Positions 1 through 9,622 of a DNA stretch of 63,397 nucleotides are shown in pieces. Numbering within the stretch: position 1 is the first letter of the stretch; each line of letters opens with the position of its first letter. Source of the DNA: Thermoproteota archaeon. Its GTDB lineage: Archaea > Asgardarchaeota > Njordarchaeia > Njordarchaeales > Panguiarchaeaceae. Below the pieces are notes generated by a model. It made no database searches. It saw nothing but the letters and a program-made list of their open reading frames with translations, and was not told the origin of the DNA. The position numbers and the translations under genes are program-made. The stretch lies in contig JANJXX010000001.1 in NCBI GenBank assembly GCA_024720975.1, positions 1 to 63,397 on the forward strand, given 5' to 3'.

Positions 1-2346
1 CTGCGAAATGCAACTGGAATCTACAGTTGGATTGACATTTATATTGCCAACTTCACAGCAGGCAATAGCAAGATTTATATAAATCACACAAACTTTAGCA
101 TGCCAATAGAATATGTGAACAGTTTTGTTATCATTAGCGACAGTGAAGATATGATTAGGATAACAAGATTTGACCTCGTCTGGGAAAACTCAACAACAAT
201 CATAGTTGTATACATAAAACAGTACCTGACCCTTAGTGGGGGTGTGTATGTAGATGCTTATAATGTCACTTATAGAAAACTACGCATCCCAAATACGTGG
301 ACTGATGAGTCTACCCTCGCCAAAGGAACAGGAATAGGATACGACATCAAAACCTCTTGGTCTGGAGCTAATAGAATAATCGCCTTCATAGGCTCTAACG
401 CCACCAGCGTCTTTGGAGCAACTCTTAGAGTATCATTCGCAGCTAATTTGTTTATTAATGAAGCTACAAAAATACCTGTAAGTTTTGCAGGTACCAAAAC
501 CGCAAAGGCGACTCCATATTCTGCATGTTTGAGCAATATTATACTCGCATCTGGGTATGTTTATATCGTTGCAGCACTTGTTGCATCAATAGGAAGTGAG
601 CTTGTCACAATCGCATGGAATGGTATCGCAACTTTAATTGATGCCACAACAATACTGACCCCTGATGATCTAACTGAATATAACATTCCCGTATTGGATT
701 TCAAGCACCCATCAATAACACCTTTATGGAGTAGCTACTGCCTAGTATCTTTCATCGGATACTCAGAGACTGATAATTACTTAATATACTTCAGAGGCCA
801 ATTTTCAAGTGGTAGCATACTTCCCCCCTCTAGCGCAGGTGAGATCACCTATGAGAAGACACTAAAGCGTACGTTGTATACTCTTCTTGCAGATAATGAT
901 CCTTTGGATAACGAAACAGTTCTGATGTGGATTGATTTTTCCGAGAAGTCAATCATTAAGTATGCCTTGGTTCAATTTACTGATTCAGGCCTAAATAGAA
1001 CTGATGTATCTACATGTGTGGGCTTGAGTGATGTGGTGAGCTTTGATGCAATGTTCATGGGTAGTCTAAATATAACTGTAATGCTCAATTCTACGCACTC
1101 TAGCTATACCTTAGCTTATAACAGCATTTTCATCGCACACATATCCGACACGGAGGCAGGAAAGTTTCCATATGTTGCTCTTGGACTTAGAGATAGTGAC
1201 ATGGACTTTCTTGGAGACTGCGAAGAGGAATTCTATATGACAGATCCGAATAATAGTGATAGTGATTTTGATGAAATACCAGATGGTAGTGAAGTTTTCA
1301 TCTATCATACTAAGCCAAACATGAACGATACCGATAATGACGGACTCTATGATGGTATTGAAATTCGAGGCGTAGATATACCTGGAGTTGGCATCAGACA
1401 GACAGACCCACTGAATCCCGACACAGACTCCGATGGACTCCTTGATGGCGAAGAGGCACTAGGTGTTGAAATAACAAATCCTATGACAGGCGGAATATTT
1501 ACCGTCTGCACAAACCCACGAAATCATGACACAGACTCTGACAGCCTTAAAGATGGCGAGGAGGTATCCGGGTTTGATATACCTGGAATTGGACACGTAC
1601 AAACAGATCCAACACTACGAGATACAGACTCTGATATGCTTACAGACGACCAAGAAGTAAACAATGTGAAAACCAACCCATGGAACCCAGATACTGATGG
1701 CGATGGACTATTAGATTCTACTGAGGTGTTTAAGACTCGAACTAATCCGAGGTTGAGGGATACGGATGGAGACCTTATACCTGATAATTTTGATATGCTG
1801 TTACCAACTACTAGTGATTTCACATATATTATAGTTGCCGTAATGCTCATTGGTTTGTTTAGGCTCCACTCATATGGCCTATTTAGGAACTGGAGGAGGG
1901 ATATTATTGGGGTGGGTCTCTCTGATTTGGGTGGGATTCCGATGTTCGTGCTACCAGAGAGATTCCCCGTGGAAATTGACATATCACTAATAAGTTCTGG
2001 TATTACTGGAATATTCACAATGGCTGGCGAACTATCTCGGAGAGCTCTAGATAGAATTGTTCTGTCTGGAGTGGTACCGATTCTTATTGATAAGGGTGAG
2101 TATACTCTAATGTGGGTTTTCCTCAGGAGGGAGTATCCTAGGGTAATAAAGCAGCTTAGCAAACTCCATAGGGAGATGGAGAAAGCCTACAGCGCCATTC
2201 TTGCAGAGTGGTCTGGTGTCGTAGAAGAACTCATTGATGTAAAATCTTGGCTCATGGTTAGACTCTTTCCTGGAGCGAGATTCGAGGCCAAGGAGGAATT
2301 GAAAGTATTAGAAGAAGAATTCAGGGAAACGTTTAAAGAAGAATGA
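1..2346 (+). CDS. Large cell-surface protein (5'-truncated): Ca-binding DTDxDGLxDGxE (thrombospondin type-3-like) repeats, one TM helix, cytoplasmic longin/roadblock-like tail
   Basis: Frame is open from base 1, with no stop before the ATG at 100. About 7 D-[ST]-D-x-D-x-[LI]-x-D repeats. Hydrophobic segment FTYIIVAVMLIGLF. Tail IIGVGLSDLGGIPMF...ISLISSGITGIFTMAGEL...EWSG. Confidence 0.75.
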   Translation: MRNATGIYSWIDIYIANFTAGNSKIYINHTNFSMPIEYVNSFVIISDSEDMIRITRFDLVWENSTTIIVVYIKQYLTLSGGVYVDAYNVTYRKLRIPNTWTDESTLAKGTGIGYDIKTSWSGANRIIAFIGSNATSVFGATLRVSFAANLFINEATKIPVSFAGTKTAKATPYSACLSNIILASGYVYIVAALVASIGSELVTIAWNGIATLIDATTILTPDDLTEYNIPVLDFKHPSITPLWSSYCLVSFIGYSETDNYLIYFRGQFSSGSILPPSSAGEITYEKTLKRTLYTLLADNDPLDNETVLMWIDFSEKSIIKYALVQFTDSGLNRTDVSTCVGLSDVVSFDAMFMGSLNITVMLNSTHSSYTLAYNSIFIAHISDTEAGKFPYVALGLRDSDMDFLGDCEEEFYMTDPNNSDSDFDEIPDGSEVFIYHTKPNMNDTDNDGLYDGIEIRGVDIPGVGIRQTDPLNPDTDSDGLLDGEEALGVEITNPMTGGIFTVCTNPRNHDTDSDSLKDGEEVSGFDIPGIGHVQTDPTLRDTDSDMLTDDQEVNNVKTNPWNPDTDGDGLLDSTEVFKTRTNPRLRDTDGDLIPDNFDMLLPTTSDFTYIIVAVMLIGLFRLHSYGLFRNWRRDIIGVGLSDLGGIPMFVLPERFPVEIDISLISSGITGIFTMAGELSRRALDRIVLSGVVPILIDKGEYTLMWVFLRREYPRVIKQLSKLHREMEKAYSAILAEWSGVVEELIDVKSWLMVRLFPGARFEAKEELKVLEEEFRETFKEE

Positions 2347-2428: not shown

Positions 2429-3127
2429 TTAATGAAGGGATATAGCGTACAATAAGCACAAGACTTTTGTAGTGAAAAGTGTAAGGCTTACTGCTTCTAT
2501 TCGTAGTTTCCATGGATACTTCCTTTTTCCCATGAAGAAATACTTTGCTACTAAAGCTTCTGTAAGGAATTCTACGCGATTTAGACTATTTGCTAAGATT
2601 ACACTGAGTAATTGCGTAATTCCGCGGAATGCGCCTTTGTATATGCTTCTTAAGGCTAAGGCTTCTATGCTTTGCTCGGCGTCTTTGATTGTAAGTGGTA
2701 TTAGTCTTATTGTTAGGGATGTTGCTCTTATTGCGCTTTCTGGGAGTTTTAATTTTTCCAATACTTGCTCCATGCTTAAGATTCTGGTTGTAGTGTATGC
2801 GTTTAAGAGTGCTATGCTTCCGATTATCAGTCGCGCCATGATTAGGATAGCCTTCTCTAATGGATTCAGAAGAAAGACTAGTATGCCTATCGATAGAATG
2901 ATATATTTCAAGCCCCTCAGGAACTGTAATACATTCCTAGTTGTACCTCCTACGGCTGACTCCGCTAAGGTAATTACGGCTAATAAGACTGCAACCTTTA
3001 TTGAACAGAGAGCCAATATAATTAAAACTAAGAGTACTCCTGCTAGCTTCAATACTGGGTGACTCTCGTATAGAGGGGAGTTTCTATTTGGTATCATCGC
3101 CTGGAAAAGGGACTTCATGTCTAGCAT
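2429..3127 (-). CDS. ecfT: ECF transporter transmembrane T component
   Basis: HPVLKL N-terminus, TM helices, LTIRLIP...EALALR...EALVAK coupling helices; in an operon with two ATPases and an S component. Confidence 0.85.
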   Translation of the reverse strand: MLDMKSLFQAMIPNRNSPLYESHPVLKLAGVLLVLIILALCSIKVAVLLAVITLAESAVGGTTRNVLQFLRGLKYIILSIGILVFLLNPLEKAILIMARLIIGSIALLNAYTTTRILSMEQVLEKLKLPESAIRATSLTIRLIPLTIKDAEQSIEALALRSIYKGAFRGITQLLSVILANSLNRVEFLTEALVAKYFFMGKRKYPWKLRIEAVSLTLFTTKVLCLLYAISLH

Positions 3128-3867
3128 AACATCATCGCCAAAGCTTTGATCAAGTCATCCTTTGTGAACTTTGGGTCTAGACCCAATTTTAGCAGCACTT
3201 TGTAAACTTGGACGGTTTGATTTAGGCTTAAGTATGGTAGCTCATCTAAGGCTAACTCTGGCTTGCTTCTGATTTTTATTCTTCCATCCTCGAGAAATAA
3301 AATTTCGTCACAAAATGGTAGTATTCGAAAGTCGTTGGTTGCTAGCAGTATTAGTCTTTCTCTTCCAACGTTTTTAAGCAATTCTATTAGCCTGATTCTA
3401 TTTTCCTTGTCGAGACCGACTGTGATTTCGTCTAGCAGAACCACATCCGTTTTGTAGCTTAGGGCTGTCACTAGAGCTGCCAGTCTTCTTTCTCCTTCAC
3501 TAACTTTGAATATTTGCTCATGCATAATATCTCGAACTGAGAAGTAGTCTATAAGATCCTCGCTTACTTTTGCTCTCTCGAATTCATCAACTATTCTAGG
3601 GCCAGTGAGAAATGTGGATGGGTTCGATGGTAAATATATAACCTTGCTGACAACATCCCTATAGGACTTCACTCTCTTTCCGCAGACTGTTAAACTGCCT
3701 CTGTTCAGTTTAAGCATGCCAGCTATTATCCTTAGCAAAGTCGTTTTTCCAGAGCCATTACAACCTGTTAAGCAGTAAAATCCCCTATCCAAGTCTAGAT
3801 TTAGGCCTCTAAGTATCCAGTTGCTTCTAGGATACCTAAACCACGCATTCCTTATGCTTAATAGCAT
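3121..3867 (-). CDS. ecfA2: ECF transporter ATPase (A' subunit)
   Basis: Walker A GCNGSGKT, signature VSEGE, Walker B LLDEITVGLD. Confidence 0.85.
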   Translation of the reverse strand: MLLSIRNAWFRYPRSNWILRGLNLDLDRGFYCLTGCNGSGKTTLLRIIAGMLKLNRGSLTVCGKRVKSYRDVVSKVIYLPSNPSTFLTGPRIVDEFERAKVSEDLIDYFSVRDIMHEQIFKVSEGERRLAALVTALSYKTDVVLLDEITVGLDKENRIRLIELLKNVGRERLILLATNDFRILPFCDEILFLEDGRIKIRSKPELALDELPYLSLNQTVQVYKVLLKLGLDPKFTKDDLIKALAMMLC

Positions 3868-4708
3868 TTTCGATCATCACCAGAAACTCATTTAACGATT
3901 TAGGAATTCGATCTATACAGCCCCTTCCTCGAAAGATTACTGCATACTCCAAGAGTTCTGGTATATTTATGTCTAACAAAAGCTCTGCAACATCATCGAG
4001 GGAGCCTTGAGCTGCTACTGTACCGTCTTTTAGAACTATGATTTTATTCGCCAGTTCAACCAGGTAGTCTAGATGGTGCTCAAATACCAATATGATCCTC
4101 CCAGTAGATACCTCACTGAGTGCTTTAATAAATCTGATGTAGTTGTCAGGATCTAACCTTGAGAGTGGCTCATCGAGCACTAGTACCTTTGCTCCGGTGG
4201 CGATTGCTGAGGCTAATGCAATAAGTTGTAGCTGTCCGCTGCTGAGTTCAAGCGTAGATCTATTAATTAGGTCACCAAGTTTAAGAGTCTTAACTACGTA
4301 TTCAACACGTCTTTTCATACTCTCAGGCTTAAGACCAAGATTTATTAGTGGAAGATATAACTCCTCTTCGACTGTTATTGATGATATAAATAGCTCTGGA
4401 TTTTGAGATACATATGCTACCTTCCCGGCGAGGGTACCAGGCCCATTTTTTATCGGATCCTCTCCCAAGACTCTAACTTCTCCAGATACTTCAGCATAAA
4501 AAATATGAGGAATTAGACCTACCAGCACTCTTGCTAGAGTCGTCTTCCCGCATCCTGTTTTACCCACTATTAGATATATTCCATCCGTACTTATCTCTAG
4601 ATTTACGCCGCGTAGAATGAACTTGTCCCTATTTGGATATCGAACCCATAAATTCCTTAATTCTATCAATAACTCCCATCTCTTCGAGCTTATGTATGAT
4701 AGGAACAC
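3836..4708 (-). CDS. ecfA1: ECF transporter ATPase (A subunit); likely true start TTG at 4669
   Basis: GKTGCGKT, Q-loop SQNPE, LSSGQ, VLDEPLSRLD, FEHH. Confidence 0.88.
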   Translation of the reverse strand: MFLSYISSKRWELLIELRNLWVRYPNRDKFILRGVNLEISTDGIYLIVGKTGCGKTTLARVLVGLIPHIFYAEVSGEVRVLGEDPIKNGPGTLAGKVAYVSQNPELFISSITVEEELYLPLINLGLKPESMKRRVEYVVKTLKLGDLINRSTLELSSGQLQLIALASAIATGAKVLVLDEPLSRLDPDNYIRFIKALSEVSTGRIILVFEHHLDYLVELANKIIVLKDGTVAAQGSLDDVAELLLDINIPELLEYAVIFRGRGCIDRIPKSLNEFLVMIENAIKHKECVV

Positions 4709-5402
4709 TTATTGCTATACCTACTATAGATTGAAACATATTGGGTATTACCTCGACTAGAGCCACCTCACTGCCAAGTAGCATTGTCTCATATAGATAG
4801 TACCCGTATACCATTAGAATGCCAGCAATTAGGCATGAAAATATCATTATGTGAGCTCTCCTTCCTAGGAACAAGAGTAAAAGCGCTATAATCTCTACAG
4901 TGATAACAAATGCTAGAAGTATCCAGATTTGTATCTCAGTGCTGAATGTGAGTGAGAGAGGTTCTGACGTAAGCTCGATTGTTATTTTATCCATACCAAG
5001 ATGGAAATACGTGTACAAGTACGAGGCTAAAGTTACACCAAGTATCGCCACTATCGAAATTAGCAGTGCATATTTCCTCTTAATAGACTCTTTTCCCCTA
5101 ACTAGCGTCAAGTACAAGAAGCCAGCAACGAAACCTTCTGCAGCTTTGATTATTAAAGTGCCAGGAGCATATATTGGGTACCCTAGGTAAAGATCTGCTA
5201 GTGCTGAACCAATTCCTCCTGCCAACGCTCCCACAATTGGTCCGCCAATAATTGCAGCAAGATACACGCCCGCCTCTCCAACATTCCAAAAACCTCCTGT
5301 GGCCGGTATTGATATTGCAACTACTATCGTAAATACAAATACAACTGCAGCTAGTATAGCAGCAAGTGCAATTAATTTGATCTCACGACTTTCTGCTAGC
5401 AT
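4629..5402 (-). CDS. ECF transporter S component (COG4720; HmpT/PdxU2-like, possibly vitamin B6) with an internal two-helix insertion
   Basis: IPATGGFWNVGEAGVY...GGIGSALADLYLGYPIYAPGTLIIKAAEG motif. Start moved to ATG 5402, which follows an AGGTG RBS. Confidence 0.8.
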   Translation of the reverse strand: MLAESREIKLIALAAILAAVVFVFTIVVAISIPATGGFWNVGEAGVYLAAIIGGPIVGALAGGIGSALADLYLGYPIYAPGTLIIKAAEGFVAGFLYLTLVRGKESIKRKYALLISIVAILGVTLASYLYTYFHLGMDKITIELTSEPLSLTFSTEIQIWILLAFVITVEIIALLLLFLGRRAHIMIFSCLIAGILMVYGYYLYETMLLGSEVALVEVIPNMFQSIVGIAISVPIIHKLEEMGVIDRIKEFMGSISK

Positions 5403-5560
5403 AAAAACACCTACGAAATCTATTCTAGTCTTAAAATCAGATGGACATTGAAGAGGTTTATTATATAGGTTTGAGCCTATATATAGGTTTAGTAGAGTTA
5501 ATTGTATCAATTGTTTTTCGCAACTGAGCCATTCCTGATACGACATATTGATACAGCTTC

Positions 5561-6973
5561 ATGTTCAGTAAAGTGATAGACATGAATATATTCTTCGAGT
5601 GCAGAAAGTGCCGATCGCGTTTCAGCACGGAGTTTCTGAGATGCCCTATATGTGGTGGCCTATTGACGGCAAATTACGACAACTTATCATGGAAGCCCCT
5701 CAATCTCAATAGTATTTGGAGGTATTCCTGTCTACTGCCAAGGAACAGAACTACTATAGTAACTCTTGGAGAGGGTATGACTCCGATAGTCGAGGCGAAT
5801 AATCTCGCTAAGGTTCTGGGTGTTAAAAAGCTGTATATAAAGGATGAGACTAGAAATCCTACGGGCTCTTTTGTTGATAGAGGTATTTCAGTCGTTGTGA
5901 ACAATATTGAGGAGGACACTAAAGAGATTGTGTGTTCAACTAGAGGTGATACTGGGGCATCTTTAGCTGTATACTCTGCGCGCATCAAATTGAAAGCAAG
6001 AATCTACGTCCCGCGGGATGTTGATCTAGGAAAATTATATATAATGCTCTTGAGTGGTGCTGACGTTAGAATTGTGCCTGATTTCTTAACCGCCACTTAT
6101 TTAGCTGAGACTGAGAGTATGCAAACAAAGGTAGTTATGGAGACTCTGCCATCCTACATAGAAGGCCTAAAAACGATAAGCTTTGAGATCTTTGAGCAAC
6201 TAAACATGAATATACCTGATATCATAATAGTACCTGTTGGTTCTGGAGCTTTAATATCTGCCATCTGGAAGGGCTTCGAAGAGCTTAGAAAGTTGAACTT
6301 ATTGGATAATACACCAAGACTTGTGGGTGTGCAAGTTGAGGGCGCTGATCCTATCACCATGCTATTCAACAGAATGAAACTAGAAAAAATGTCTGCAAAG
6401 ACTCTAGCACGTGATACGGAGTTATTCATTCCGGGACTCGCAGAAACTGCATTAGAAGCCGTTAGACGCTCAGGAGGAGTCATGATTAGCGTGAGTAATA
6501 CTGAGATACCAAGATACATTGAGTTGCTTGCAAGGACTGAAGGTATTATAGCAGAGCCGTCAGCAGTGCTGTCAATAATTGCTATAAGCCGCATACTTAA
6601 TAGCTTCATAGATGCGGATTCAGAAGTCTTAGCAGTAATTACTGGCTCTGGACTCAGAACACCAGATGTTCTAAGGAACTTGCTACCAATAGAAGACATG
6701 CTTAGAAAAGTTTCTGAAGATATCCCGAGACTAGCTACATCAAGACTTGGCGAAACAAAGATTCAGATACTCACAATATTGAAGCATAAACCTTTACATG
6801 GTTACGGAATAAAGAAGGAACTCGCTAATCGTTATAATAAAAATCTATCGACAGCAACAATATATCAGCATTTGAGAGAGCTCGAAAACATGGGGCTAGT
6901 AAGTAGAACCAGGAAAGTCGGAAAAAGAGGGAAGGTACTGTACATGGTAAATAACACAAAGTTACTTACTTGA
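5561..6973 (+). CDS. Threonine-synthase-like (fold-type II PLP) domain lacking the catalytic Lys, fused to a C-terminal PadR/ArsR-like wHTH; probable regulator
   Basis: N-terminal CxxC...CxxC; TLGEGMTP; NPTGSFVDRG in place of NPTGSFKDRG; C-terminal ILTILKHKPLHGYGIKKEL...TIYQHLRELENMGLV. Confidence 0.8.
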   Translation: MFSKVIDMNIFFECRKCRSRFSTEFLRCPICGGLLTANYDNLSWKPLNLNSIWRYSCLLPRNRTTIVTLGEGMTPIVEANNLAKVLGVKKLYIKDETRNPTGSFVDRGISVVVNNIEEDTKEIVCSTRGDTGASLAVYSARIKLKARIYVPRDVDLGKLYIMLLSGADVRIVPDFLTATYLAETESMQTKVVMETLPSYIEGLKTISFEIFEQLNMNIPDIIIVPVGSGALISAIWKGFEELRKLNLLDNTPRLVGVQVEGADPITMLFNRMKLEKMSAKTLARDTELFIPGLAETALEAVRRSGGVMISVSNTEIPRYIELLARTEGIIAEPSAVLSIIAISRILNSFIDADSEVLAVITGSGLRTPDVLRNLLPIEDMLRKVSEDIPRLATSRLGETKIQILTILKHKPLHGYGIKKELANRYNKNLSTATIYQHLRELENMGLVSRTRKVGKRGKVLYMVNNTKLLT

Positions 6974-7003: not shown

Positions 7004-8632
7004 CTAGCTTTTGAGGATTTTTTCAAAGACGTCCTTGTCTAGATCTTCTATCAGTGGAATTTCAAAGAGTTTTGCTGCACGCTCGGTGAGGGCTGCAACA
7101 TCGGTTCTCTTTACCAGCTTTATGTCGAACTTTCGCATACCTGCTAGTAATTGTTTGAGGCCTGTGCCTATTCTGTCGACGAAGTAGCTGTAGATACCTA
7201 TACCACCGGCGGGAATTTGACTCCACTTGTCACCATATCTGTTCTTTAGGTCTCCAGCTACGGCAAATATTGTCTCAAGCTTGTCGCCATAGATTTGAGT
7301 GAATTCAGGAGCAATCTTGCTCAGCGTACCCTCCTTGGCAAGCTTTGCAAAGTATTTGGCTTTCATAGCTGCGGTGAGTGCTGGCTTTGCCACAGATGCG
7401 CCAATTACGTATGGTCTATCCTTATCGGGAAATCCACTCAGGGCCATCGCTTTGAGTATTTGAGTTTCGTTGATTATTCCACCAGCGATGAATATGTCTG
7501 GCACATATTTTCCTTTCTTGTCGAGGATCCTGGCAGCTTTTATTACAAGAGCTAGCATGTAAAGTGTTGGCGTACCCATTTCTAGCATCATAGGCCATGG
7601 GGACATACCTGTACCGCCTCCTTGACCATCGAATGTCACATAGTCAACCTTTGCTTCAGATGCAGCTTTCATTGCCCAGGCGATTACTGCTGGTCTATAC
7701 TGACCCATCTTTAAAGAGACTATTTTAGCTCCCTGCTCTCTCAGCTTATCAACATCTTCGCAGAAGCTCTCTATTGTCGGCATACCAATTCTTGAGTGCC
7801 TCTCGAATGATTCAATTGCACCCATCTTCCAAGCTTCTTGAACTCCTGGATCCTCGGGGTCTGGGAGAACTACATATCCTCGCCTCTTAAGTTCTATTGC
7901 TCTCTGAAGGTCTTTAACTCTTATTTCGCCACCTATAGCCTTTGCTCCTTGACCCCACTTTCTCTCAATACCATTTACCTCGAGTTTTGTAATTACATAT
8001 ACATCAACGCCAAGCCTTTGATCCTCAACATTCGTTTGTACTACTATATCTCCATATTCTCCGTCCCACCAATCTCTGAAGGTTTTTATTCTGAATTCCA
8101 TTTCTGGGCTTTTTTGTACCTTCCCATTGCTAATTATTGATTCTGGATCAACACCACATACATTTTCTCCAACAGTCATTATCGTTCCAGATATTGCTGC
8201 TCCGGATGCTAAATGCTCCCAGTTGTTCTTAGCTACAGTCGTACTACCTAGACCTGCAATTATAACTGGAACCCTAAGCTTTATTCTGTGTTTTCTTCCC
8301 ACCTCGACCCCTATTTTGACGCGTTCAAATATTGCCTTGTCTTCATCTCGAAACTCTTCGGGGTATGTTGCCTCAGCTCTTAATTCGCTCATTAGTTGTA
8401 GGTCTGCCCAGTCAATTCCATAGTATTTATTGCTAGCTATTACTGATTTTCCAAAGAGGTCAGATCTCGGATATAGACACTCTCTGCCTCTGAGTGCTGA
8501 CTTTGATATCTCACATAGGATTGGACACTCTTCGACACATATTGGGCATATTCCTGTTGGCATAGGATCTGCTGAGAATCTTATTCTAGTTCCAGTTGCT
8601 GAAGAGCCCCCAATGCTTGATCTTGCACCCAT
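7004..8632 (-). CDS. FMN-binding glutamate synthase family protein (archaeal stand-alone GltB domain 2)
   Basis: CPICVEECPILCEI Cys cluster, ERKWGQGAKAIGGE, TFDGQGGGTGMSP, FIAGG, GLKQLLAG. Confidence 0.85.
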   Translation of the reverse strand: MGARSSIGGSSATGTRIRFSADPMPTGICPICVEECPILCEISKSALRGRECLYPRSDLFGKSVIASNKYYGIDWADLQLMSELRAEATYPEEFRDEDKAIFERVKIGVEVGRKHRIKLRVPVIIAGLGSTTVAKNNWEHLASGAAISGTIMTVGENVCGVDPESIISNGKVQKSPEMEFRIKTFRDWWDGEYGDIVVQTNVEDQRLGVDVYVITKLEVNGIERKWGQGAKAIGGEIRVKDLQRAIELKRRGYVVLPDPEDPGVQEAWKMGAIESFERHSRIGMPTIESFCEDVDKLREQGAKIVSLKMGQYRPAVIAWAMKAASEAKVDYVTFDGQGGGTGMSPWPMMLEMGTPTLYMLALVIKAARILDKKGKYVPDIFIAGGIINETQILKAMALSGFPDKDRPYVIGASVAKPALTAAMKAKYFAKLAKEGTLSKIAPEFTQIYGDKLETIFAVAGDLKNRYGDKWSQIPAGGIGIYSYFVDRIGTGLKQLLAGMRKFDIKLVKRTDVAALTERAAKLFEIPLIEDLDKDVFEKILKS

Positions 8633-8830: not shown

Positions 8831-9622
8831 TCAGTGTCCTCTCAAGTCAGAAATAATAAGCTGAGCTACCTTCCTGCCCGACAACAACATTCCACTGAAT
8901 ATTGGTCCCATCCTAGGACCTCCAAATAGCGCATTTACAGCCATACCTGCCACGTAAAGTCCAGGTAAAACACGGCAGGTTTTTTCTACGACGAATTTTT
9001 CTCCTTCTGGTGCCCACATAGATTTTTCTCCAAGAAGCTTTAAATTTGATTCCGGTATCTTCTTAGCAACCACATTAAGAATCTCAGCGTCATGTCCAGT
9101 AGCATCAACTACAGCCCTCGCTTTAAGCGCTATTGGATCTACGTGCAGACCTGCTATCGGTACGGCTGACCATATACATACAACGCCTTCTATTCTTAGC
9201 GGATTTTCCCTGTATATAATGTCCTCTACATCAACTCCTAGAAATATTTTTGCGCCTGAGTCACTTGCCGCAGACAAAAGCTTGCCAATCATCTGGACAG
9301 AATCAAGAATGAATACGCCATCACCTACTTTTTCATACCTTACTCCTATCTCATCAAGTATCTCGTTTGCAGGTGAGGCTACAACTAATTTGTGAAATAA
9401 ATTTCCACCGCCTCCCATTCCACCGCCAACAGTCACTCTTCTTTCTAGGACCAATGTTTTAAGTCCCGCCTTCGCTAAATAATACGCTGCCGTTAGTCCT
9501 GCAGGACCGGCGCCAACGATTATGACATCTGATTTCACGTAATTTATCCAATCCTCCATAGCGTGCTTTAATATGAGCCTGGTTATTTCTTCTTCAGGAA
9601 CATCTTTTAGCAATATCATCAC
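8831..9622 (-). CDS. thi4: Thiazole synthase, sulfide-dependent (His-type)
   Basis: DVIIVGAGPAGL, GGGMGGGG, GLHVDP (His at the suicide-Cys position), DATGHDA, PRMGPIFSGMLLSG. Confidence 0.93.
   Translation of the reverse strand: MMILLKDVPEEEITRLILKHAMEDWINYVKSDVIIVGAGPAGLTAAYYLAKAGLKTLVLERRVTVGGGMGGGGNLFHKLVVASPANEILDEIGVRYEKVGDGVFILDSVQMIGKLLSAASDSGAKIFLGVDVEDIIYRENPLRIEGVVCIWSAVPIAGLHVDPIALKARAVVDATGHDAEILNVVAKKIPESNLKLLGEKSMWAPEGEKFVVEKTCRVLPGLYVAGMAVNALFGGPRMGPIFSGMLLSGRKVAQLIISDLRGH

What the first reader, a model, noticed from the sequence alone, without database searches (positions are those of the whole stretch)
4629..6973. Threonine-synthase pseudoenzyme-wHTH fusion divergent from a B6-type ECF transporter: candidate PLP-sensing regulator
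Seen: the Schiff-base Lys is replaced (codon GTT; NPTGSFVDRG) and STGN has become TRGD, while the phosphate loop PVGSG is kept. A PadR/ArsR-like wHTH is fused at the C-terminus. The gene is divergent from an S-A-A'-T ECF operon whose S component resembles HmpT/PdxU2. Known: MocR/PdxR regulators fuse a wHTH to a fold-type I PLP domain. Inference: a convergent design using a fold-type II domain to sense B6 vitamers or an amino acid and control uptake.
Basis: partly seen in the sequence, partly recalled or inferred. Interest (0 to 1): 0.72.

Follow-up and report, generated by a model that had tools for sequence, protein, structure and literature searches.

The report
Archaeal dead-enzyme vitamin B6 switch
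A gene that databases label "threonine synthase" is most likely a dead enzyme fused to a DNA-binding domain that senses vitamin B6 and switches the neighbouring B6 importer on or off, in a widespread archaeal regulator family for which I found no published description.

Summary
Window 5582-6973 (+) encodes a Zn-ribbon, a threonine-synthase fold and a PadR winged helix. The Schiff-base Lys is Val (GTT, 5873-5875). The gene is divergent from an ECF S-A-A'-T operon (2429-5402, -).

- Catalytic residues: 112 of 121 fused homologues lack the Lys, and all clades lack ThrC's substrate-phosphate Arg. The cofactor-contact positions are kept. A canonical thrC lies elsewhere in the genome.
- Linkage: a PF07155 S-component sits next to the regulator in 71 of 83 loci (Asgard, Bathyarchaeia, Thermoprotei). 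Its only PDB sequence match is HmpT/PdxU2.
- B6 synthesis: in three genomes of the same phylum that have PdxS, the regulator abuts pdxS-pdxT.
- Operator: the palindrome CCTATATATAGG (5476-5487) is the only invariant intergenic block among close relatives. It is present in 17 of 21 divergent loci (at most one mismatch) and occurs once in this genome.
- Second operator class: TATACAA-N8-TTGTATA occurs once per genome, at the pdxS 5' end, in three other genomes.
- Auxotrophy: PdxS, PdxT and PdxJ were not found here, and PdxS in none of 13 genomes of the same order. Thiamine and riboflavin synthesis genes are present.

Best reading: a B6-responsive local regulator, probably a repressor, functionally analogous to bacterial PdxR. 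Ligand and DNA binding are inferred, not shown. This scan reached the same reading earlier on other genomes. I found no paper on the family.

The parts
5582..6973 (+). Regulator gene (463 aa from ATG 5582; the ORF is open from ATG 5561, 470 aa = P0001): Zn-ribbon + Lys-less ThrC fold + PadR wHTH
   Evidence: Start from the alignment with relatives, with the conserved AAGTGA-N5-ATG. The database copy is 463 aa. AF2 model pLDDT 88.1. Best PDB fold match is ThrC 2ZSJ, TM 0.85.
5600..5653 (+). N-terminal CxxC...CxxC zinc ribbon (P0001 aa 14-31), inherited from archaeal ThrC
   Evidence: C14, C17, C28 and C31 are invariant or nearly so in the family. The genome's own canonical ThrC has the same motif.
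5759..6646 (+). Fold-type II PLP-enzyme (ThrC-like) domain used as the putative sensor
   Evidence: PF00291 E 2.4e-61. 2ZSJ E 1.2e-51. Predicted homodimer interface lies here.
5873..5875 (+). GTT (Val) at the Schiff-base Lys position of NPTGSFKDRG
   Evidence: Column statistics. No differences in independent assemblies.
6752..6952 (+). C-terminal PadR-type winged helix (aa 398-464), after a low-confidence linker (aa 364-393)
   Evidence: PF03551 E 1.3e-10. The model shows H-H-H-E-E. The recognition helix YQHL is invariant.
5462..5489 (.). Candidate operator/promoter element TATATAGGT-N5-CCTATATATAGGTT; the 12-nt palindrome is 5476-5487
   Evidence: It is the only invariant intergenic block among four relatives. 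The palindrome is present with at most one mismatch in 17 of 21 divergent-type loci across phyla. The exact 12-mer is unique in the 1.36-Mb genome. It occurs once per genome in four other genomes and twice in a fifth.
4629..5402 (-). ECF S-component (257 aa), PF07155, HmpT/PdxU2-like
   Evidence: Start.
3836..4708 (-). ECF ATPase EcfA (start codon uncertain; overlaps the S gene)
   Evidence: PF00005 E 1.1e-24; TIGR04520 135 bits, below cut-off.
3121..3867 (-). Second ECF ATPase EcfA'
   Evidence: PF00005 E 1.5e-17.
2429..3127 (-). ECF T-component (weak CbiQ match)
   Evidence: PF02361 24.8 bits against a cut-off of 25. The syntenic orthologues in relatives carry CbiQ hits.

Best explanation
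The 463-aa protein is a one-component transcription regulator derived from threonine synthase. Its ThrC-like domain no longer catalyses. The Schiff-base Lys is Val and the substrate-phosphate Arg is gone. It keeps the cofactor pocket and binds a B6 vitamer, most likely PLP or PMP/PNP, reversibly and non-covalently.

The protein dimerises through the ThrC-like domain. Its two PadR winged helices bind the palindrome CCTATATATAGG at 5476-5487, helped by the adjacent TATATAGGT box. This element overlaps the TATA/BRE region of the divergent promoters.

When B6 is plentiful, the liganded dimer most likely occupies the element. It would then shut off the S-A-A'-T ECF importer operon, whose S-component is HmpT/PdxU2-like, and its own gene. 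When B6 is scarce, the promoters would open.

In relatives that make B6, the same family sits at pdxS-pdxT.

Shown: domain architecture, residue losses, gene linkage, the conserved unique palindromes, and a lineage in which PdxS was not found. Inferred: the ligand's identity, DNA binding by this protein, and the sign of regulation (repressor about 60:40 over activator).
For: 1. Not an enzyme. The Lys position is R46, L22, I19, V17, M4 and others, with K in 9 of 121 fused homologues. The ThrC substrate-phosphate Arg is L/I/V in all three clades, including the K clade. A canonical ThrC with NPTGSFKDRG and SSGN is encoded at G000:C3:13859-14923.

2. Conserved motif positions. N99, F/Y104, D106, R107, G129, S134, G227-x-G229 and T361-G-x-G364-L are invariant or nearly so. 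By my own knowledge of ThrC structures these include the cofactor contacts.

3. Conserved linkage. A PF07155 S-component homologue is the neighbour in 71 of 83 loci from Asgard, Bathyarchaeia and Thermoprotei. It is either divergent or co-directional.

4. B6 link.
- The S-component's only PDB sequence match is 4HZU_S (HmpT/PdxU2), E 1.2e-14. PMC9997740 lists PdxU and PdxU2/HmpT as PF07155 B6 transporters.
- The regulator is directly adjacent to pdxS-pdxT in G025, G056 and G194, which belong to three families, and lies within about 1.2 kb of them in G103.
- The G056 pdxS/regulator intergenic region carries ATATATATAA, CCTCTAAATATAGG and CCTATATATAGA.
- TATACAA-N8-TTGTATA occurs exactly once per genome in G053, G103 and G194, each time at the 5' end of pdxS. 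In G053 the regulator lies 1 Mb away.

5. Operator.
- It is the only invariant intergenic block among relatives whose regulators are 60-73% identical.
- It is present in 17 of 21 divergent loci with at most one mismatch.
- It is unique in the own genome, and the four 1-mismatch copies lie inside ORFs.
- It occurs once per genome in four other genomes and twice in a fifth.
- Residues before the YQHL recognition helix, and the length of the helix 2-helix 3 loop, change with operator class.

6. Need for uptake. PdxS, PdxT and PdxJ were not found in the own genome, which is 81% complete. PdxS was found in 0 of 13 further genomes of the same order. ThiC, Thi4, ThiD-ThiN and DMRL synthase are present.

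7. Homodimer model. ipSAE 0.82 against a best control of 0.00. Partner pLDDT is at least 81, and the runs agree in at least 77% of contacts. The mark was reached by 20 of 30 solved homo-pairs and 1 of 23 single chains. The interface runs through the ThrC-like domain and touches residues 98-102.
Against: - No binding experiment exists for ligand or DNA. No RNA data were available.
- PF07155 also holds riboflavin and other S-components, and substrate cannot be read from sequence.
- HmpT was first predicted to carry hydroxymethylpyrimidine (my recollection). A Thi4 gene lies two genes downstream, at 8831-9622.
- The palindrome contains a TATA-like core. It could be partly a bidirectional promoter element rather than, or as well as, an operator.
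- The dimer pass may reflect memory of solved ThrC dimers.
- In some genomes with PdxS (G024, G034) the regulator is not near pdxS, and I found no shared motif there.
- For the large R clade (Bathyarchaeia) I identified no operator.
- Own-genome absences rest on an 81%-complete MAG.
Confidence: 0.62

Rival explanations
1. It is the same local transcription regulator of the ECF operon, but the effector is not a free B6 vitamer. Candidates are a PLP-amino-acid external aldimine, hydroxymethylpyrimidine phosphate or another thiamine precursor (a close structural analogue of PNP/PMP), riboflavin, or O-phosphohomoserine/threonine. The transporter would carry the matching compound.
For: - Without the Lys the pocket could hold a PLP-like heterocycle that lacks an aldehyde.
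- PF07155 members carry several different vitamins.
- Thi4 lies nearby in the window and in its relatives.
- In 38 Bathyarchaeia loci the regulator>S pair is followed by an AIRS-family gene. It scores for ThiL (105 bits) and HypE (125 bits), both below cut-off.
- Canonical thrC lies divergent from the regulator in 7 Bathyarchaeia loci.
Against: - The only biosynthetic genes found directly next to the regulator are pdxS-pdxT, in three families.
- The class II palindrome is unique to the pdxS 5' end in three genomes.
- The own genome has ThiC, Thi4, ThiDN and DMRL synthase, but no PdxS, PdxT or PdxJ was found.
- ThrC's substrate-phosphate Arg is lost, so O-phosphohomoserine is unlikely.
- RibU structures did not match the S-component at E<=10.
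Confidence: 0.22
2. It is a bifunctional enzyme-regulator, in the manner of archaeal RbkR. It would still be a working PLP enzyme (threonine synthase or a related beta/gamma-replacement enzyme) with a DNA-binding tail.
For: - TIGR00260 thrC scores 178.1 bits, above its cut-off of 167.1.
- A clade of 9 fused homologues keeps the Lys.
- RbkR shows that enzyme-regulator bifunctionality exists in Archaea (PMC5397151).
Against: - The window's protein has Val at the Lys position, and 112 of 121 homologues lack Lys.
- The substrate Arg is lost even in the K clade.
- A canonical ThrC is present in the same genome.
- The better-fitting NCBIfam model PRK05638 scores 275 bits against a cut-off of 421.
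Confidence: 0.04
3. The palindrome is only a strong symmetric TATA promoter for the divergent genes. The fusion protein would act elsewhere, or not as a transcription factor of this locus.
For: - The core TATATATA is TATA-box-like.
- In Asgard loci the adjacent ATATATAA box sits roughly 25-30 nt from the S-gene ATG, as a TATA box of a leaderless gene would.
Against: - A generic promoter element would not be unique in each genome, yet the exact 12-mer occurs once in 1.2-4.0 Mb genomes.
- The CC/GG flanks are invariant across phyla.
- The element tracks the regulator clade: it is absent from the R clade.
- The wHTH varies with operator class.
Confidence: 0.08

Closest known systems
MocR-subfamily PLP-dependent regulators, especially PdxR (Bacteria)
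   Same: It is a PLP-enzyme fold recruited as the sensor of a one-component transcription factor. The regulon logic is the same: pdxST synthesis genes and a PF07155 B6 transporter (pdxU) (PMC5320631).
   Different: - PdxR has an N-terminal GntR wHTH plus a fold-type I aminotransferase domain. As far as I know it keeps its PLP-binding Lys.
- This protein has a fold-type II ThrC domain, a C-terminal PadR wHTH, an N-terminal Zn ribbon and no Lys.
- MocR factors are reported as not present in Archaea.
- The relation is functional analogy, not homology.
Threonine synthase ThrC (EC 4.2.3.1), e.g. PDB 2ZSJ and 1UIM
   Same: Same fold (Foldseek TM 0.85, rmsd 2.3 A, 34% identity). Same Zn-ribbon N-terminus as archaeal ThrC. 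Cofactor-pocket motifs are kept. The predicted dimer runs through the same domain.
   Different: The Schiff-base Lys and the substrate-phosphate Arg are lost. A linker plus a wHTH is added. Gene context is a vitamin transporter or pdxST, not threonine biosynthesis.
Archaeal enzyme-derived vitamin regulators: RbkR (riboflavin kinase + wHTH; PMC5397151) and ThiR (ThiN-like domain; from my own knowledge)
   Same: These are archaeal regulators in which a vitamin-pathway enzyme fold is joined to a DNA-binding domain. They control synthesis and uptake genes of that vitamin through palindromic operators.
   Different: The sensor here comes from an enzyme that uses the vitamin as cofactor, not from one that makes it. 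RbkR is still catalytic, whereas this protein is not.
PadR-family regulators
   Same: The C-terminal domain matches PF03551 above its cut-off (41.6 against 27 bits). It is a dimeric wHTH with a palindromic candidate site.
   Different: Typical PadR proteins are about 110-180 aa with an N-terminal wHTH and a C-terminal dimerisation helix. Here the wHTH is C-terminal to a 360-aa sensor domain, which provides the predicted dimer interface.
ECF-HmpT/PdxU2 of Lactobacillus brevis (PDB 4HZU)
   Same: The S-component is the sole PDB sequence match (E 1.2e-14). The build is the same: S plus A, A' and T.
   Different: - The S-component here is 257 aa against 166 aa. It has about 85 extra residues between the two matched stretches.
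- The module is encoded as a dedicated S-A-A'-T operon.
- The substrate is untested.

Membership tests
Threonine synthase (ThrC) | Fold-type II PLP-enzyme fold with ThrC-level sequence similarity | tested here: met
   PF00291 E 2.4e-61. TIGR00260 178.1 bits, above its cut-off of 167.1. 2ZSJ TM 0.85.
Threonine synthase (ThrC) | Schiff-base lysine in N-P-T-G-S-F-K-D-R | tested here: not met
   Val (GTT, 5873-5875). The Lys is absent in 112 of 121 fused homologues.
Threonine synthase (ThrC) | Arg that binds the phosphate of O-phosphohomoserine (N-P-x-R-x-E-G-x-K-T) | tested here: not met
   The 2ZSJ alignment puts Tyr at this position and the family alignment puts the neighbouring Ile. No clade has Arg at either position: the family column is L/I/V, while the genome's own ThrC has Arg there.
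Threonine synthase (ThrC) | Threonine synthase activity | not testable with these tools
   Needs an enzyme assay or thrC complementation.
PadR-family wHTH | Match to the PadR winged-helix model above the gathering score | tested here: met
   PF03551 41.6 bits against 27, aa 403-464. The model shows three helices and a two-strand wing.
PadR-family wHTH | Sequence-specific DNA binding as a dimer | not testable with these tools
   Only indirect support: the conserved unique palindrome, and the homodimer model with ipSAE 0.82 against a best control of 0.00.
MocR/PdxR | N-terminal GntR wHTH plus fold-type I aminotransferase-like domain | tested here: not met
   The domains found are PALP (fold-type II) and a C-terminal PadR. 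No GntR or aminotransferase match was found.
MocR/PdxR | Control of pdxST and/or a pdxU-type transporter | tested here: inconclusive
   Gene adjacency and promoter palindromes at S-component genes and pdxST fit this. Regulation itself is not shown.
ECF transporter (dedicated S-A-A'-T module) | S-component, two ABC ATPases and a T-component encoded together | tested here: met
   PF07155 E 1.2e-29 and two PF00005 proteins. CbiQ scores 24.8 bits, just under its cut-off of 25, but is supported by the orthologues.
PdxU2/HmpT B6 S-component | Sequence relationship to the characterised HmpT/PdxU2 | tested here: met
   4HZU_S at E 1.2e-14 is the only PDB match at E<=10. Same Pfam family as PdxU and PdxU2.
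PdxU2/HmpT B6 S-component | Binds or transports a B6 vitamer | not testable with these tools
   Needs a binding or uptake assay.

The most novel reading that the evidence does not exclude
This Lys-less ThrC-PadR family is the main vitamin B6-responsive transcription factor of Archaea, including Asgard, Bathyarchaeia and Thermoprotei. It would be an independent invention of the PdxR principle. It uses a fold-type II domain in which loss of the Schiff-base Lys turned a tightly held cofactor into a freely exchanging signal. It would govern both B6 import (PdxU/HmpT-type S-components) and de novo synthesis (pdxST) through lineage-specific palindromic operators. In the many lineages where PdxS was not found, it would gate the cell's B6 supply through this importer.
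Probability: 0.55. Interest if true: 0.8.

Novelty: new variant of a known kind. Interest (0 to 1): 0.7.

Why it matters
- B6 control in Archaea. I found no B6 regulator described for Archaea, and MocR/PdxR factors are reported absent there. This family would fill that gap. It also gives two operator motifs that can be tested directly.
- Annotation. It would correct a widespread error. More than a thousand database proteins scored as homologues. All but one of the 120 listed carry both the PLP-enzyme and PadR domains. The nearest are labelled 'threonine synthase' or 'pyridoxal-phosphate dependent enzyme' where a name is given. Such labels distort metabolic reconstructions of uncultured Asgard and Bathyarchaeia genomes.
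- Physiology. PdxS was found in only 32 of 201 sampled genomes of this phylum. B6 exchange may therefore be an important dependency of these organisms, and this module is a marker for it.
- Mechanism. It is a clean example of turning a cofactor-dependent enzyme into a cofactor sensor by deleting the covalent anchor.

Tried and rejected
- Literature. Seven full-text searches (plus reading PMC9997740, PMC5397151 and PMC5320631) found no description of a ThrC-PadR fusion or of an archaeal B6 regulator. Subscription journals were not searched.
- RNA evidence. No RNA holder was listed. The runs that hold the stretch are DNA contigs from hot-spring metagenomes, so nothing can be said about expression.
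- Bacterial sigma-70 promoter and terminator scan. It was no better than shuffles and is irrelevant for an archaeon.
- Wider regulon in the own genome. The four 1-mismatch copies of the palindrome all lie inside ORFs, and the reversed-pattern control gave more hits. I rejected them as sites.
- Operator for the R clade (Bathyarchaeia, co-directional regulator>S). Neither the class I nor the class II palindrome is present. Recurrent ATAA-N2-ATAAAA strings look like promoter sequence and were not pursued.
- Shared motif between the regulator and pdxS upstream regions in G024 and G034. Nothing convincing was found.
- Thiamine or HMP reading. I considered it because of the Thi4 neighbour and the AIRS (ThiL/HypE-like) gene. 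It ranks lower because of the pdxST adjacency and the genome's own ThiC, Thi4 and ThiDN.
- Naming the organism. The tools code the taxonomy. The nearest named relative of the regulator is a Njordarchaeota MAG at 40% identity, and the phylum assignment is not established.
- One Pfam call failed because of a wrong frame and was repeated.


Full report
**What is there**

The finding covers two divergent genes.

The plus-strand ORF 5561-6973 (P0001, 470 aa) has four parts:
- a CxxC...CxxC zinc ribbon (aa 14-31);
- a PLP-enzyme domain (PF00291, aa 67-362, E 2.4e-61);
- a low-confidence linker;
- a PadR winged helix (PF03551, aa 403-464, E 1.3e-10).

The Lys motif reads NPTGSFVDRG, with GTT at 5873-5875. 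The Asn loop is CSTRGDTGAS and the glycine loop is IIVPVGSGAL.

On the minus strand lie four ECF genes:
- an S-component (PF07155, E 1.2e-29);
- two ABC ATPases;
- a weak CbiQ-type T-component.

Alignment with the same region of three relatives, whose regulators are 60-73% identical, moves both start codons. The regulator starts at ATG 5582, preceded by AAGTGA. The S gene starts at ATG 5402, preceded by AGGTG.

Contigs from four hot-spring metagenome runs of different studies cover the Val codon without change, and three of them cover the intergenic element without change.

**It is not a threonine synthase**

The fold is ThrC. The best PDB sequence match is 2ZSJ (E 1.2e-51). Foldseek gives TM 0.85 and rmsd 2.3 A.

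The catalytic equipment is missing:
- Across 121 fused homologues the Lys position is R46, L22, I19, V17, K9, M4 and four others.
- The Arg that holds the phosphate of O-phosphohomoserine in ThrC is replaced by L/I/V in every clade. This includes the nine proteins that keep Lys. In the window's protein the two alignments put Tyr or the adjacent Ile there.

Many other motif positions stay invariant or nearly so. These are N99, F/Y104, D106, R107, G129, S134, G227-x-G229 and T361-G-x-G-L. By my own knowledge of ThrC structures, several of these contact PLP.

The genome also encodes a canonical ThrC with NPTGSFKDRG and SSGN, at G000:C3:13859-14923.

The 'threonine synthase' label has a simple cause. 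TIGR00260 scores 178.1 bits, just over its cut-off of 167.1. The full-length model PRK05638 scores 275 bits against a cut-off of 421.

**A widespread family with a fixed partner**

More than 1000 database proteins scored at E<=0.001. Of the 120 listed, all but one carry both the PALP and the PadR domain. Where a source names them, they are called threonine synthase or pyridoxal-phosphate dependent enzyme.

I took 80 genome loci from Njord-, Thor- and Hermodarchaeota, Bathyarchaeia, Thermoprotei and Thermoplasmata. I called ORFs and clustered the neighbours. A homologue of the window's S-component is adjacent in 71 of 83 loci.

Two layouts separate cleanly by clade:
- Hydrophobic clade. Proteins with V, I, L or M at the Lys position, including the window's, lie divergent from the S gene.
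- R clade. Proteins with Arg there, mostly from Bathyarchaeia, head a co-directional regulator>S pair. In 38 loci an AIRS-family gene follows.

ECF A/A'/T genes accompany the S gene in only about a dozen loci.

**A conserved, genome-unique operator candidate**

Enumeration of palindromes in the upstream regions found CCTATATATAGG far above shuffled controls.
- It is present, with at most one mismatch, in 17 of 21 divergent-type loci. In Asgard and Bathyarchaeia loci it is usually preceded by an ATATATAA box and a 5-6 nt spacer such as TTGAG.
- In the window it lies at 5476-5487, with TATATAGGT at 5462-5470.
- Among the four close relatives the intergenic DNA differs in length and sequence. Only TATATAGGT-N5-CCTATATATAGGTT is invariant.
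- The exact 12-mer occurs once in the 1.36-Mb genome. The four 1-mismatch copies lie inside ORFs.
- In five other genomes of 1.2-4.0 Mb it occurs once each, at the regulator locus. One Thorarchaeota genome has a second copy, about 200 nt upstream of a PLP-enzyme (PALP) gene.

From base composition I expect about 0.14 copies per genome of this size (my own calculation). A generic TATA element would not be unique.

The element overlaps TATA-like sequence of both divergent promoters. That position is typical of archaeal repressors.

The YQHL recognition helix is invariant. The residues before it, and the length of the helix 2-helix 3 loop, differ between proteins with different operator classes.

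**Why vitamin B6**

Four lines of evidence point the same way.

1. The transporter. The S-component's only PDB sequence match is chain S of 4HZU, the L. brevis HmpT/PdxU2 (E 1.2e-14). PMC9997740 lists PdxU and PdxU2/HmpT as PF07155 B6 transporters, and pyridoxamine as a verified substrate of HmpT.

2. Adjacency to B6 synthesis genes. I compared the positions of regulator and PdxS hits in genomes of the same phylum, then read the loci.
- G025: regulator>pdxS>pdxT.
- G056: pdxT<pdxS< >regulator.
- G194: regulator< >pdxS>pdxT.
- G103: the regulator lies about 1.2 kb from pdxST.
These genomes belong to different families, and their regulators have L, I, L and R at the Lys position.

3. Operators at pdxS.
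- The G056 intergenic region has the same build as the window's. It reads ATATATATAA, CCTCTAAATATAGG, CCTATATATAGA.
- G194 has a different palindrome, TATACAAGTTATAACTTGTATA.
- The pattern TATACAA-N8-TTGTATA occurs exactly once per genome in G053, G103 and G194. Each copy sits at the 5' end of pdxS. In G053 the regulator is 1 Mb away and is paired with an S-component.

4. The host's needs.
- PdxS, PdxT and PdxJ were not found in the own genome, which is 81% complete.
- PdxS was found in none of the 13 other genomes of the order, which are 66-91% complete.
- ThiC, Thi4, ThiD-ThiN and DMRL synthase are present.
The lineage therefore seems to need B6 from outside, but not thiamine precursors or riboflavin.

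**Mechanism proposed**

- A homodimer model passes its controls. ipSAE is 0.82 against a best control of 0.00. Partner pLDDT is at least 81 and the runs agree in at least 77% of contacts. The mark was reached by 20 of 30 solved homo-pairs and 1 of 23 single chains.
- The interface runs through the ThrC-like domain and includes residues 98-102, next to the former Lys. Ligand occupancy could therefore be passed to the dimer geometry. ThrC dimers are solved, so this pass may be from memory.
- The winged helices hang on a flexible linker, aa 364-393, which has low pLDDT.
- I infer that a B6 vitamer binds non-covalently in the retained pocket. This would change the affinity of the dimer for the palindrome, and binding would block TBP/TFB at both promoters.
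- I put repression by the liganded form at about 60:40 over activation.

**Comparison and novelty**

The closest functional analogue is bacterial PdxR. The regulon logic is the same, covering pdxST and pdxU. The folds, the order of domains and the DNA-binding family all differ, and MocR factors are reported as not present in Archaea.

The concept also matches archaeal RbkR, an enzyme-derived vitamin regulator.

I found no paper on this family. None of the 14 control genomes, which include four model archaea, carries a full member.

Earlier notes of this scan reached the same B6-sensor reading on other genomes. One of them reported a TA(A/G)GTT-NN-AACTTA site that resembles the class II palindrome found here. 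I treat those notes as leads only.

**Verdict**

- Ligand and DNA binding remain to be shown.

Noticed in passing
L024:10206-11216 and 37 other loci; own-genome homologue at G000:C25:46270-47247: In Bathyarchaeia the regulator>S pair is followed in 38 loci by an AIRS-family gene of about 337 aa. It scores for HypE (125 bits) and ThiL (105 bits), both below cut-off, so it fits neither family. It could be an unrecognised ATP-dependent vitamin-salvage enzyme.
   Followed up: partly
L045, L055, L058, L070, L072, L073, L075 (e.g. L072:6058-7314, minus strand): In seven Bathyarchaeia loci a canonical thrC lies divergent from the regulator>S operon. It has NPTGSFKDR, is 410-436 aa long and has no wHTH. 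This may be a trace of the duplication that gave rise to the regulator, or thrC may be a regulon member.
   Followed up: partly
L092:1501-1512 (G004:C7:32394-32405): One Thorarchaeota genome has a second exact CCTATATATAGG. It lies about 200 nt upstream of a PALP-domain gene whose PTGSHK and GAGQWG motifs look TrpB-like (from my own knowledge). This would be a PLP enzyme that may belong to the regulon.
   Followed up: partly
Phylum-wide sample: PdxS (PF01680) was found in only 32 of 201 sampled genomes of the window's phylum, and in 10 of 86 high-quality ones. This suggests widespread dependence on external B6, or an unknown synthesis route.
   Followed up: partly
L005:5865-7160 (minus strand) and 11 other Thor-/Hermodarchaeota loci: A conserved protein of about 430 aa with no Pfam or NCBIfam match lies directly downstream of the S-component gene. 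A desulfoferrodoxin gene lies downstream of the regulator.
   Followed up: no
window 7004-8632 (-) and 8831-9622 (-): A glutamate-synthase-domain protein (PF01645) and the thiazole synthase Thi4 lie just downstream of the regulator. This layout is kept in close relatives (L100, L101).
   Followed up: partly
window 5503-5511 and 5547-5555: A perfect 9-nt inverted repeat (TGTATCAAT / ATTGATACA, 35 nt apart) lies between the palindrome and the regulator's start codon, in what would be its leader. It is not clearly conserved in relatives.
   Followed up: no
window 4629-5402 (-): The S-component is 257 aa, against 166 aa for HmpT. About 85 extra residues lie between the two stretches that align to 4HZU_S, possibly forming extra transmembrane helices.
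   Followed up: no
window 100-2346 (+): A 748-aa ORF next to the ECF T gene has no Pfam match at E<=1e-4.
   Followed up: no
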